Of a DNA stretch of 64,000 nucleotides, positions 4,065 through 53,790 are shown piece after piece. The DNA comes from Eledone cirrhosa (Eukaryota): the NCBI GenBank assembly GCA_964016885.1, contig OZ024743.1, positions 344,968,001-345,032,000 on the forward strand. The letters are read 5' to 3'. Position numbers and translations under genes: made by a program. The notes under the pieces are model-generated. The model did not search any database, was not told the DNA's origin, and saw only the letters and a program-made list of their open reading frames with translations. The stretch's first letter is position 1. The number at the start of each line of letters is the position of its first letter.

Positions 4065-4145
4065 GCCCTAACTGTACAGTTTCGCGTTGCAAAACATTAG
4101 ATATCACGTGGATATTAATGGAAAAGCAAAGATCATCAGAGAAGC
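4065..4145 (-). ncRNA. Type I hammerhead ribozyme (H1 copy 1)
   Basis: ttct-CTGATGA-t-ctttgc...gcaacg-c-GAAA-CTGTACAG-TT/aggg; helix III is a perfect palindrome. Confidence 0.7.
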
Positions 4146-4589
4146 ATTTTCCTATCCTAGGGTTAAAAACCCCAGGAACGATAAAATATATGACCTCACT
4201 CCAACTAATACAGGTCTGAAAGGTCGTGAAAGTGACCCATAAATACGTTGGTGTATAGTGAAGGCGGGAAATCGTAGACTGGTCGTCTATGTTCGCTACC
4301 AAAAAAGATTTTTAGCAACTAAATAGAACGACAGGATTTTTCTCTACATACTTGGAGAATATTGAATAAGGTTAATATATGTCTGAGGGTACAATGTACC
4401 CCCGGAAATATATAGTGTGTCTATGATTTAAGGTGGTTCTATGGTAATAATTTGATATACCAGAACTTAATATCAAGATAAGCAGAACAAGTAAAATTCA
4501 ACCAATTTTTCAAAATAAATCAAAATTAATATACAATTAAAATTAATCAAAATTAAAAAATATAATATAAATATTTACCTATTCAAATG

Positions 4590-4670
4590 GCCCTAACTGT
4601 ACAGTTTCGCGTTGCAAAACATTAAATATCACGTTGATATTAATGGAAAAGCAAAGATCATCAGAGAAGC
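4590..4670 (-). ncRNA. Type I hammerhead ribozyme (H1 copy 2)
   Basis: Same core, one repeat unit (525 nt) away from copy 1. Confidence 0.7.
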
Positions 4671-4854
4671 ATTTTCCTATCCTAGGTTTAAAAACCCCAG
4701 GAACGATAAAATATATGACCTCACTCCAACTAATACAGGTCTGAAAGGTCGTGAAAGTTTAAATCATAGACACACTATATATTTCCGGGGGGGTACATTG
4801 TACCCTCAGACATATATTAACCTTATTCTATATATAAATATATATATATATATA

Positions 4855-5180
4855 AGATATTAACAAATGGAAACTATATTTATAAAACCATATTTATTTC
4901 ATTATACATATTTCAAGGATACCAAGTTAAACCATGGTATGCCTTCATCAGACAAAATACAATATATACCAGTTTTATAAATAAACATTGACGTACCCTT
5001 TCAAAATGCGACCGTTACTTTTGGAAGATCTCAGGATAGTGGTTTGTTTATTTTAGTAAGTTGTAGTGTTAAGGATAAGTAAAAAAGACGGAGAGAGAGA
5101 GAGAAACGTGGAGAAAAGAAAGGGAGAGATAAATAAAGAAAAAGAGGGAAGAAAAAAGAAAAAGGAAAAAAGAAAAGAAG
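4855..5180 (-). mobile_element. PLE-like pLTR fragment (family H4)
   Basis: Reverse complement of ~48690-49020; contains a hammerhead motif. Confidence 0.75.
4896..4958 (-). ncRNA. Type I hammerhead ribozyme (H4)
   Basis: attttgt-CTGATGA-aggcatacca...tggtatcctt-GAAA-TATGTA-TA/atgaaat. Confidence 0.65.
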
Positions 5181-5322
5181 AAACCTGTCGTATGTATGCA
5201 TATATATATATATATATATATATATATGCATACATACGACAGGTTTCTTTAGTTTCCACCTACGAAATTTCACTCACAAAGTATTAGTCGATGCTGACAC
5301 ATGATGTTAGACGCATATTATT

Positions 5323-5620
5323 GGTGAAGGCGCATGGCTTAGGGGTTAGAGCATTAAGCTTGCAATTAAATGGTTGTCTCCTTGCGCGAGATACTTTATT
5401 TCACGTTTAGTCAGCTGTAGAAATGATTTGCGACGTCACTGGTGCCAAGGTGTATCGGCCATAGCCTTTCCCTTGGACATCATCGGTGGCGTGAAGAGAT
5501 GAGGTTGGTATGCATGGGCGACTGCTGGTCTTCTTCAAATAACCTTGTCCGGACTTGTGCCTCGGAGGGAAACTTTCTAGGTGCAAATCACATGGACATT
5601 CTTGACCGAAGGAGGTCTTC
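5323..5620 (+). mobile_element. tRNA-derived SINE family B (internally deleted)
   Basis: GGTGAAGGCGCATGGCTTAGGGGTTAG tRNA-like head and core CCTTG...ACTTTATTTCACGTT shared with 9003-9130 and 41193-41460. Confidence 0.7.
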
Positions 5621-5639
5621 GATTGGTGAGTGCGTTAAC

Positions 5640-50630: not shown

Positions 50631-51050
50631 TTGTGGTAAGGTTGCTTGGATGCGTCCATAGTCGGTATGCCGGTTGAGCACTCTATGCTCCTACGCAGCA
50701 GAGTATGATACTATGGAAAACGAAAAATGAGTGAGGCATCGGAACACAAATTTATTACGTATTACAAACATTTCTCCCGCGAACAGCTCGAGATGCGATC
50801 TATTTGTGGATCGAACCTGACACTGGATCCGCAAGTTCCGCAGATATGTCTAGTGATTTCAAAGCAAATCCGGGCAGAGTCCAGCAGAGAGAGGATTTGC
50901 TTCGAAATCACTAGACGTATCTGAGGAACTTGCGAATCCAGAGCCAGCATCGATCCACAAATAGATCGCATCTCGAGCTATTCGCCGGAGAAACATTTGT
51001 AATACATAATAAATTTGTGTTCCGATGCATCACTGATTCTTCGTTTTCTA
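50631..51050. mobile_element. PLE-like family H6: head-to-head inverted pair (~155-bp arms)
   Basis: 50716-50870 and 50893-51048 are imperfect reverse complements; each arm has a hammerhead core. Confidence 0.8.
50917..51005 (+). ncRNA. Type I hammerhead ribozyme (H6)
   Basis: gtat-CTGAGGA-a-cttgcgaat...attcgccgg-a-GAAA-CATTTG-TA/atac. The mirror copy at 50759-50847 has a mutated core (CTGCGGA). Confidence 0.65.
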
Positions 51051-51187
51051 TATTATACACACACACACACATATATATATATATATATATATATGCATAT
51101 ACACGCACGCACCACGCGTGCGCACACACACGCATACACATACACATACACACACACACATATATATATATATATATATATATATAT

Positions 51188-51352
51188 TGATTTCTCGTAT
51201 AGGCACAAGGCCAGTCATTTGGGGCAGGGGAAAGTCGAATAAATCTACCCCAGTACGTCACTGGTACTTTATTTTATCGAACCCGTAAGGATGAAAGACA
51301 AAGTTAACCTCACCGGGATTTGAACTCAAACCATACATGACCGTAACTCTAT
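51188..51352 (-). mobile_element. SINE family A subfamily (longer tail), 5'-truncated
   Basis: GAGTTCAAATCCCGGTGAGG...AAGTACCAGT...TGGCCTTGTGCCTATACGAGAAATC. Confidence 0.8.
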
Positions 51353-52448
51353 GCATATATATATATATATATATATATATATATATATTAATACATACAT
51401 ATCCATAGTCACACACAAATATACACGAATATTTACACACATTTACACAGGAATTTCAATAGAGATGGAATCCTGGTGTGTCTCTGAAGAGTCAAAATTG
51501 CCTTGGTCTATCACTATAACTATTTCATTCAGCTCAGCTCAGACTGTCGGATTTTACTCCTTCTTTACTTTCCAATATCTTCCACCCTTGCATAAGAAGG
51601 TGTCTCAATTTTGAAATGTCAATTCTAGTTAATTGTAAGTTAAATTTTGTTCCACTCGCTATAGCCTTCCGAATCTGACACCAAACAGTGAGTGTGTTCT
51701 GTTATTATTTCTGGAAATATTATTACAACAATATGATCCTCCCCAAGTGTAACAATATTTGTTTCGACACACGATTTCATATGAAAAACCTTGCAAAACA
51801 AATATATATATATATATATATATATATAATGATGTTTATAAGTGATGTTTATTCACCCGGTAGTGGGATAGGAATGAGCTATAGCTTATATTTATATATG
51901 TATGTATGTGTGTGTGTGTGCATGTATGTAAAAGGAAAACAGAAATAATTAAAATAACAAAATAAACGGCACATTACATGGAATATAAATATATATATAT
52001 GTGTGTGTGTGTTTGTGTGTGTGTGTGTGTGTGTGTGTGTTCATTATTTAACAATAGCACTAACATAATAGTATTTCATAATAAAGTTGTATAAGGAGGC
52101 ATATACGGAATGTTTATATATAATAAACATATATAAATTTTGCTATGAATATTTTAAGCTTTGATAATGTCAAACCCTTTCAGTCACCGTACGAGAGCGC
52201 CATAAACGTGTTTCTAAAATGTTCAACCGTCCAAAGTGATATTTATTCAATCGGTAGTGAGATAGGAATGAGCTATAGCTTATATACGTTTTGTGTATAT
52301 ATCATATACTCGTACACCTCTCCCTCTATATATGTATGTATGTATGTATGTATGTATGTATGTATGTATGTATGTGCGCATGAATGTATGCAGTATGCAT
52401 ATATATGAATACATGTACATACGTATATATATATATATTTATATATAG

Positions 52449-52627
52449 GAACCAGTAAGACCCCGACAGCTGAGCTCAAGCCGTTTCGACGGCTAATTCT
52501 GGACGTCGAAACGGCTTGAGCTCAGCTGTCGGGGTCTTACTGGTTACTATTACCCACTCTACTACCTCAAGTATTGAGTACTTTGGTGCGTTATGGTCCA
52601 CCTGGTTCCTTACCACATTTCCTTCGT
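52449..52627. mobile_element. Family H7 inverted plus direct fragment
   Basis: 52449-52504 is inverted and 52505-52627 is direct; matches 3705-3845; followed by (TG)n. Confidence 0.75.
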
Positions 52628-52763
52628 TGTGTGTGTGTGTGTGTGTGTGTGTGTGTGTGTGTGTGTGTGTGTGTGTGTGTGTGTGTGTGTGTGTGTGTGT
52701 GTGTGTGTGTGTGTGTGTGTGTGTGTGTGTGTGTGTGTGTGTGTGTGTGTGTGTGTGTGTGTG
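52628..52763 (+). repeat. Long perfect (TG)n
   Basis: Directly visible. Confidence 0.97.
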
Positions 52764-52989
52764 TATACATGTATATATATATAATATATGTATATATATA
52801 TATATATATATATATATATATATAAATATATATATATATAATATAGGTATACGTAAGTTTGCATACTATATATATATATTATATATATATTATATAATAT
52901 CTTTTGGAAAAGATATTATATATATATTATATAATATCTTTTCCATTTATATATATATATATATATATATTATATATATATATATATAA

Positions 52990-53790
52990 ATGGAAAAGAA
53001 TGAAACGAAATTTCATTTCTCACTCTTAGTACAGCTGATACCTAAATATAAGTATTTATACGTACATACATATATGTGTACAGCTGTACAGTATTATGTA
53101 TATATATACATACATGCACACATATGTATATGTACGTATGGATTTACCGAACATTTATTATAATGTTCGGTTTGTTTGTAAACAAACAGCCCGAATTATG
53201 CCGTGCCGTACAGTGCTCGGCAACCATCGTCGTCCTTTTGTTTACAAACAAACCGAACATTATAATAAATGTTCGGTAAACCCATACGTACATATATATA
53301 TGTGTGCATGTATGTATATATATACATACTGTTGTACACATATATGTATGTACGTATAAATACTTATATTTAGGTATCAGCCGTACCTAAGAGTGAGAAA
53401 TGAAATTTCGTTTCATTCTTTTCCATTTATCGTTTTCGGTGCGCCCGGCCGACTAACTCACTTGATATGCAAATTAGGCTGTTCAGCCGTTAATATGCAT
53501 AAGGAAAGTATATACTTTCACACGTTCAGTCATCTGACAGAAAGGTATACGATGCTGACGATAGCTAATAAGCTTGAAACTAGTATATCGTTCCTGTGTC
53601 AGTGTTGAACAAAAGGGCGACGATGGTTGCCGAGCAATGTACGGTGTAATTCGTTTAGAAACAAACCGAACATTATAATAAATGTTCGGTAAACCCATAC
53701 GTACATATATTTATATATGTGTGCATGTATGTATATATACATACTACTGTACAGCTCTACACATATATGTATGTACGTATAAATACTTAT
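52990..53790. mobile_element. ORF-less PLE-derived family H5: inverted piece plus ~1.3 units of ~413 bp
   Basis: 52990-53190 is inverted versus 53238-53430; CCGAACATTATAATAAATGTTCGG recurs at 53253 and 53666; flanked by (TA)n. Confidence 0.8.
53549..53591 (+). ncRNA. Minimal type I hammerhead ribozyme (H5)
   Basis: acgatg-CTGACGA-t-agct-aata-agct-t-GAAA-CTAG-TA/tatcgt. Confidence 0.8.

What the first reader, a model, noticed from the sequence alone, without database searches (positions are those of the whole stretch)
4065..53591. Dense set of hammerheads with a recurrent non-canonical 10.1-11.1 mismatch
About a dozen complete cores from at least 7 families occur in 64 kb. The first pair of helix II, canonically G10.1-C11.1, is U.C or A.C (H1), C.A (H2, all four copies), A.A (H3, H6) and U.U (H5), while the rest of helix II pairs. 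H10 (42465-42509) has the same 5+4+5 geometry as H5 but with G-C. Recurrence across families argues against random decay. Known: PLE-associated minimal hammerhead variants cleave as dimers. Whether this particular variant is catalogued I cannot check. Standard descriptors requiring the pair would miss these motifs.
Basis: partly seen in the sequence, partly recalled or inferred. Interest (0 to 1): 0.75.

Follow-up and report, generated by a model that had tools for sequence, protein, structure and literature searches.

The report
Mismatch-fixed hammerheads in animal retrozymes
Thousands of short repeats in this animal genome carry a hammerhead (self-cutting RNA) motif in which whole repeat families have replaced a normally conserved G-C pair by a fixed mismatch (U·U, already known; C·A and A·A, not found in the papers I could read), and they likely still cut, which would mean this pair is more dispensable in nature than textbooks imply.

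Summary
Real. The window holds 13 type I hammerhead cores from 7-8 repeat families. The 10.1·11.1 mismatch is fixed within families, not decay: C·A in 5,869 of 6,035 H2 copies, U·U in 13,229 of 16,324 copies of the 5+4+5 pattern, A·A the consensus of H3 and H6. H1 needs correcting: its first 100 copies are 51 U·U and 44 G-C; A·C (21) and U·C (5) of 996 are minor. The motifs are not minimal PLE hammerheads. They sit in 430-555 bp non-coding tandem units with Penelope-type ends, i.e. non-LTR retrozymes. U·U is published (Perreault 2011; axolotl Amex2, active as dimer); C·A and A·A were not found in readable papers. H2 copies start exactly at the predicted cut site in 27 loci versus 11 and 10 at neighbouring positions, hinting at cleavage in vivo. 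No RNA data or kinetics. The scan noted C·A plus the pseudoknot before on another piece of this genome. New variant of a known kind.

The parts
4066..4152 (-). H1a hammerhead, U10.1(4132)·C11.1(4084), long helix II, helix III CUGUACAG, predicted cut after 4070; predicted pseudoknot 4147-4152 with 4120-4125
   Evidence: family mostly U·U
4591..4677 (-). H1a second tandem copy (525 bp period), U·C
3950..4835 (-). H1a retrozyme insertion (partial tandem) between (TA)n tracts; ends approximate
4895..4959 (-). H4 hammerhead, helix II opens with A-U (not a mismatch family)
21234..21315 (+). H2 hammerhead, C10.1(21246)·A11.1(21296), in an inverted-repeat insertion of about 20930-21370
29992..30071 (-). 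H2 hammerhead in the inverted copy, C·A
30257..30347 (+). H2 hammerhead, C(30279)·A(30329), predicted cut after 30343; predicted pseudoknot 30257-30263 with 30288-30294
30821..30900 (+). H2 hammerhead, next tandem unit (553 bp period), C·A
29930..31090 (.). H2 retrozyme insertion: inverted truncated copy plus partial tandem, flanked by microsatellites; ends approximate
42465..42509 (-). H10 hammerhead, canonical G10.1-C11.1, 5+4+5 helix II; sister family of H5, 469 bp unit
44667..44755 (+). H1b hammerhead, A10.1(44683)·C11.1(44732); minor sublineage of a G-C family; a 5'-truncated copy with C3U core lies at 44189
48913..48977 (+). H4 hammerhead, second copy, A-U first pair
50915..51007 (+). 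H3 hammerhead, A(50928)·A(50989), long helix II, no pseudoknot found; in a palindromic insertion 50708-51056
53549..53591 (+). H5 hammerhead, U(53562)·U(53575), 5+4+5 helix II, predicted cut after 53585; about 430 bp unit
53952..53998 (-). H6 hammerhead, A(53985)·A(53972); this copy is decayed, family consensus A·A followed by three G-C pairs

Best explanation
These are type I hammerhead motifs inside short non-coding repeats in which whole families carry a fixed non-Watson-Crick pair (U·U, C·A or A·A) at the base of helix II, and they likely still self-cleave, probably more slowly, as retrozymes likely mobilised by Penelope-like elements. Shown: family-level fixation, covarying helices, 430-555 bp tandem units without ORFs for H1, H2, H5 and H10, two fixed 3' ends per family, inverted insertions in microsatellites. 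Inferred: multimeric transcripts are cut after NUH, as monomers or through the palindromic helix III as dimers; units are circularised or copied by a PLE reverse transcriptase; the 1x1 mismatch stacks under the sheared A9·G12 pair in place of G-C; and lost stability is offset by peripheral contacts (a predicted 5'-flank/helix II pseudoknot in long families; loop-bulge contacts, recalled from known type I motifs, in the short ones).
For: Fixation. In 11 divergent H2 representatives (83% mean column identity) helix II pairs 10.3 and 10.6 change on both sides while C·A stays in 10 of 11; covariation score 0.281 vs 0.131, 0 of 500 shuffles. A single C>U at a CpG would give U-A, yet U·A appears only sporadically (3 of the first 100). 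Sister families differ: H1a U·U vs H1b G-C (77% identical, separate clades 100/100), H5 U·U vs H10 G-C (68% over 172 nt). Units fold as stable circles (z -3.4 to -7.3 for four monomers). Two fixed 3' ends per family match the PLE two-site/tail signature. H2 copies starting at the cut site: 27 loci vs 11 and 10, p=0.0009. Precedent: axolotl HHR_Amex2 with U·U cleaves 22% as monomer and efficiently as dimer. C·A and U·U also stand in contigs of a second organism label.
Against: No kinetics. The cut-site excess falls to 19 vs 21 pooled controls (p=0.044) if 8 head-to-head loci are dropped, which could also come from deletion at the palindromic helix III; in the loci held before that search only 2 of 69 H2 5' ends lay within -3..+4 of the cut and 0 of 58 for H5. 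HHR cleavage was not needed for a PLE's insertion in vitro. Pseudoknot pairs barely vary inside H2; cross-family support (35 of 40,320 permutations) used windows chosen after seeing the pairings; H3 and the 1720 copy show none. MFE folds of several isolated motifs do not give the hammerhead fold. No tandem unit was seen for H3 or H6.
Confidence: 0.7

Rival explanations
1. The mismatches are passengers: cleavage is nearly dispensable for these repeats, a damaged master copy amplified in each family, and the motif is crippled or has a non-catalytic (protein-binding) role.
For: HHR mutants did not affect PLE insertion in vitro and no RNA ends were seen at the cut site in Anolis; many different states occur; a 21-copy A·C sublineage amplified; no cut-site 5' ends in 58 H5 ends.
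Against: The catalytic core, cleavable NUH and helices I-III are kept while neighbours covary; C·A persists across divergent subfamilies; excess of H2 starts at the cut site.
Confidence: 0.17
2. In H2 and H6 the G-C pair is retained as the second pair, with one extra base on each side (the known extra base between 9 and 10.1 plus a new one before G12), so the mismatch is two bulges.
For: The second pair is G-C in H2 (9 of 11, never covarying) and in H6; an extra base at 9/10.1 is described for PLE motifs.
Against: The second pair is A-U in H5, C-G in H1a and H3, U-A in L073 and L091; sister families have the same helix length with G-C at the first position.
Confidence: 0.1
3. Post-insertion decay of ordinary G-C hammerheads.
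For: The window's H6 copy is decayed elsewhere; U·C is rare (5 of 996).
Against: 97% C·A in 6,035 H2 copies; 13,229 U·U copies; G-C to U·U, C·A or A·A needs two changes.
Confidence: 0.03

Closest known systems
Metazoan non-LTR retrozymes, esp. axolotl Rtz_353 with HHR_Amex2 (Cervera & de la Peña 2020, PMC7229834; Li et al. preprint 10.64898/2026.07.22.740005)
   Same: Type I hammerhead in short low-GC non-coding tandem units, palindromic weak helix III, co-occurring PLEs; Amex2 has a U·U mismatch at the base of helix II in about 60,000 copies.
   Different: Here several further fixed states (C·A, A·A), units of 430-555 bp, and about 50-nt helix II domains with a predicted pseudoknot; RNA circles not shown here.
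Natural U10.1·U11.1 and pseudoknotted hammerheads (Perreault et al. 2011, PMC3088659)
   Same: U·U first pair of stem II; pseudoknot between stems I and II in about 40% of representatives, in all three types.
   Different: The text reports only U·U as a rare variant; highly repetitive type I motifs were excluded from part of the pseudoknot analysis; here the partner strand is an internal loop of a long helix II.
Minimal PLE hammerheads (Cervera & De la Peña 2014, PMC4209133; Lünse et al. 2017, not readable)
   Same: Type I, dimer-competent, PLE-linked, longer helix II.
   Different: Those lack helix III, have an extra base between 9 and 10.1 and a highly conserved G10.1-C11.1; these have helix III and a symmetric 1x1 mismatch, and are not at the ends of an RT ORF in any locus seen.

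Membership tests
Type I hammerhead ribozyme | Core CUGANGA / GAAA / NUH with helices I-III, helix I open | tested here: met
Type I hammerhead ribozyme | Watson-Crick (usually G-C) 10.1-11.1 pair | tested here: not met
   Not met in H1a, H2, H3, H5, H6; met in H10 and most H1b. U·U is an accepted natural exception.
Type I hammerhead ribozyme | Rfam hammerhead model at gathering score | tested here: not met
   0 hits in the window; HH9 32.4 bits vs 52 at H10
Type I hammerhead ribozyme | Site-specific self-cleavage | not testable with these tools
   Only indirect: excess of H2 copies starting at the cut site
Non-LTR retrozyme | Short tandem non-coding units, one type I HHR each, GC under 45-50% | tested here: met
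   H1a 525, H1b 485, H2 about 553, H5 about 430, H10 469 bp; GC 0.32-0.37; longest Met-ORF 29-68 aa. No tandem seen for H3, H6.
Non-LTR retrozyme | Highly self-paired unit | tested here: met
   circular MFE z -3.4 to -7.3 against 30 shuffles; TA-rich palindromes may inflate this
Non-LTR retrozyme | Expressed as circular RNA | not testable with these tools
   needs RNA data from this organism
Non-LTR retrozyme | PLE partner in the genome and PLE-type insertion anatomy | tested here: met
   PLE-like ORFs, GIY-YIG hit in L146; fixed 3' ends, scattered 5' ends, inverted copies, (TA)n flanks. The specific partner was not identified.
Minimal PLE (pLTR) hammerhead | No helix III, extra base at 9/10.1, G10.1-C11.1, flanking an RT-GIY-YIG ORF | tested here: not met

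The most novel reading that the evidence does not exclude
Animal retrozymes have evolved a pseudoknot-braced, long-helix-II hammerhead subclass in which the 10.1-11.1 pair is a tunable switch: C·A and A·A are selected, active states, reached independently in several sister lineages, that set cleavage rate or the monomer/dimer choice and so the balance of linear, circular and multimeric RNA. About 30% of this genome's hammerheads, and perhaps of other animals', would be invisible to pair-requiring descriptors.
Probability: 0.3. Interest if true: 0.72.

Novelty: new variant of a known kind. Interest (0 to 1): 0.5.

Why it matters
G10.1-C11.1 is described as the most conserved hammerhead pair after A15.1-U16.1. 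Here nature supplies matched sister families (H1a/H1b, H5/H10/H6) that differ at this pair and have each amplified to hundreds or thousands of copies. That makes the role of the pair, and of tertiary bracing, directly testable. In a 1.2 Mb sample 22 of 74 motifs have the mismatch and only 15 start with G-C, so genome-wide hammerhead counts built on strict descriptors are likely too low.

Tried and rejected
Rfam: e-value scan swamped by microsatellite hits to miRNA models; 0 hits at gathering score. The repeat finder was swamped by microsatellites. No RNA holder listed for the H2 unit; the runs laid are contigs of unknown kind and cannot show ends. 5'-end histogram on held loci gave no peak at the cut site. 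Pseudoknot not found for H3 or the decayed motif at 1720, weak for L072. Pfam did not recognise the PLE-like ORFs of L064, L107, L102. The LINE at about 58-63 kb is unrelated. A link of these motifs to pLTRs of coding PLEs was looked for in 11 loci with PLE-like ORFs and not seen; H1, H2 and H5 motifs lie near such ORFs in L146, L042, L213 and L010, read as neighbouring insertions. Roberts 2023 passages gave no values for this pair. Lünse 2017 and Nelson & Uhlenbeck 2008 are not held; the supplement of PMC7229834 could not be read. They may already list C·A or A·A or the pseudoknot. Sequence look-up of H5 in earlier findings gave nothing.
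Full report
Observation. The window lies in a 3.0 Gb, microsatellite-rich animal genome (G000:C4); the organism was not determined. Motif scans give 11 strict type I hammerheads plus H1b (44676+) and a decayed H6 (53992-). 'The rest of helix II pairs' holds for H2, H5 and H1b; H1a and H3 have an internal U·C, and the window's H6 a G·G from decay. The same scanner on 120 evenly spaced 10 kb stretches from contigs C1-C9 and C28 gave 80 hits; I dropped 6 (5 in a low-complexity tandem in L299, 1 without helix III in L256), leaving 74; reversed sequence gave 1. 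The window is about 2.8 times denser than average (2.6% of resamples): rich but not extraordinary.

H2: 5,869 of 6,035 pattern matches are C·A. 5+4+5 pattern: 13,229 of 16,324 are U·U; among the first 100 listed the rest are mostly the G-C family H10, with one C-G and one C·A. H3 and H6: A·A is the majority in alignments of 32 and 34 rows built from the 30 best loci each, so these are biased to the window's subfamily. H1 (996 matches): my hand count of the first 100 is 51 U·U, 44 G-C, 2 A·C, 2 C·U, 1 U·C; genome-wide A·C is 21 and U·C 5. The A·C copies are spread over many contigs and share diagnostic bases, so they are a small sublineage. A tree of 32 H1 rows splits G-C/A·C from U·U/U·C/C·U (100/100, midpoint root only). 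In the census 22 of 74 motifs have a 1x1 mismatch (14 U·U, 5 C·A, 3 A·A), 15 start with G-C, 27 with A-U, 10 otherwise. All pattern controls were 0.

Selection. Among 11 divergent H2 representatives (13 found, 2 truncated ones left out) pairs 10.3 and 10.6 and five of six distal-hairpin pairs change on both sides, while C·A stays in 10 of 11 (the shuffle control ignores relatedness). C10.1 is in a CpG and one transition would make U-A, but U·A occurs only in scattered copies (3 of 100). Contigs from a second organism label keep C·A (one contig) and mostly U·U; this is thin.

What the elements are. Tandem spacings give units of about 430 (H5), 469 (H10), 553 (H2), 525 (H1a) and 485 bp (H1b), GC 32-37%, without ORFs, folding as stable circles (the H10 fold was run on a dimer and is not used). 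H5 and H10 are homologous, as are H1a and H1b. Each family has two fixed 3' ends and scattered 5' ends; inverted copies and (TA)n flanks are common. This matches PLE insertion anatomy. PLE-like ORFs are in the genome; the hammerheads beside L064, L107 and L146 have U3-A8 cores with G10.1-C11.1. H3 and H6 are older, dispersed and short; no tandem unit was seen. So these are best read as non-LTR retrozymes, not minimal pLTR motifs.

In long-helix-II families a 5-7 nt stretch just 5' of helix I is complementary to the strand just past the basal helix II: H1, H2, L063, L073, L299, L251, L279, with different sequences at like positions. Matching partners beat permuted partners (35 of 40,320 over 8 families, including H3, L072 and the 1720 motif, which show little or nothing), but windows were chosen after inspection. 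Inside H2 the five pairs are 98% paired and nearly invariant, which shows conservation, not covariation. Stem I-II pseudoknots are known and boost activity.

Does it cut? Held loci gave no peak (2 of 69 H2 ends within -3..+4; 0 of 58, 16 and 18 for H5, H1a, H1b). A genome-wide pattern test for H2 found 29 matches at 27 loci starting exactly at the cut, against 11 at -4 and 10 at +4. Flanks confirm true boundaries for the cut-site and +4 sets; the -4 set was not inspected. p=0.0009, or 0.044 without 8 head-to-head loci where both arms end within 2 bases of the cut. Those 8 fit reverse transcription running off cleaved RNA but could come from deletion at the palindromic helix III. Against necessity: a PLE hammerhead was dispensable for insertion in vitro.

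Mechanism. Shown: fixation, covariation, unit structure, PLE-type ends. From established knowledge: A9·G12 forms a sheared pair next to 10.1-11.1, and palindromic helix III allows dimers. Inferred: the mismatch stacks in place of G-C, lowers stability, and is buffered by peripheral contacts; cleavage yields unit RNAs for PLE-driven copying. Metal binding at G10.1 N7 is recalled, from no call.

Literature seen. Perreault 2011 (PMC3088659): passages and sections 7, 8: natural U10.1·U11.1, citing Ruffner 1990 (not seen) that U·U is the most active mispair. Cervera & de la Peña 2020 (PMC7229834): passages, sections 14, 15; figure and supplement not seen, so reading 'base of the stem' as 10.1·11.1 is mine. 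Cervera 2014 (PMC4209133): parts 1-2 of 4. Li 2026 preprint: parts 1-2 of 5. Passages only: PMC8557442, PMC6765202, PMC7761336, PMC9901934, PMC11167929, PMC11300833. Lünse 2017 not held. Searches showed no report of family-fixed C·A or A·A, or of this pseudoknot in animal retrozymes; unread supplements and subscription papers may hold them.

Verdict. Real, family-fixed, partly known (U·U), partly apparently unreported (C·A, A·A, the braced long helix II). New variant of a known kind; interest 0.5.

Noticed in passing
window 53467-53477: Octamer-like ATGCAAAT about 90 nt upstream of the H5 core, also in the H10 unit; recalls the snRNA-type promoter of newt satellite 2 (recalled; one search did not confirm it).
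   Followed up: partly
window 57994-63432 (-): L1/Tx1-like LINE: 654 aa frame with RVT_1 and zf-RVT and an upstream 518 aa ORF1-like frame; interrupted by stops.
   Followed up: partly
L064:6452-9492, L107:662-5892, L146:919: PLE-like elements whose hammerheads use the U3-A8 core covariant with G10.1-C11.1.
   Followed up: partly
window 4895-4959, 48913-48977; L068, L120, L294: H4-type family, common in the census: helix II opens with A-U or G·U and has an internal asymmetry; helix III UAURUA.
   Followed up: no
L091:1318, L117:2632: Another U·U family with a 3 bp helix II and GAAA loop.
   Followed up: no
   Followed up: partly
window 2612-2795, 14562-14751, 19696-19894, 24911-25106, 40918-41110, 41645-41839: About 190 bp dispersed SINE-like repeat, six near-full copies at 83-92% identity.
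   Followed up: no
window 11036-12519, 21672-24246: A 1-1.5 kb repeat in three copies (89-96%) with fragments at 24232, 29406 and 35974.
   Followed up: no
window 42791-42896 and 52445-52545: Short near-perfect inverted repeats, MITE-like.
   Followed up: no
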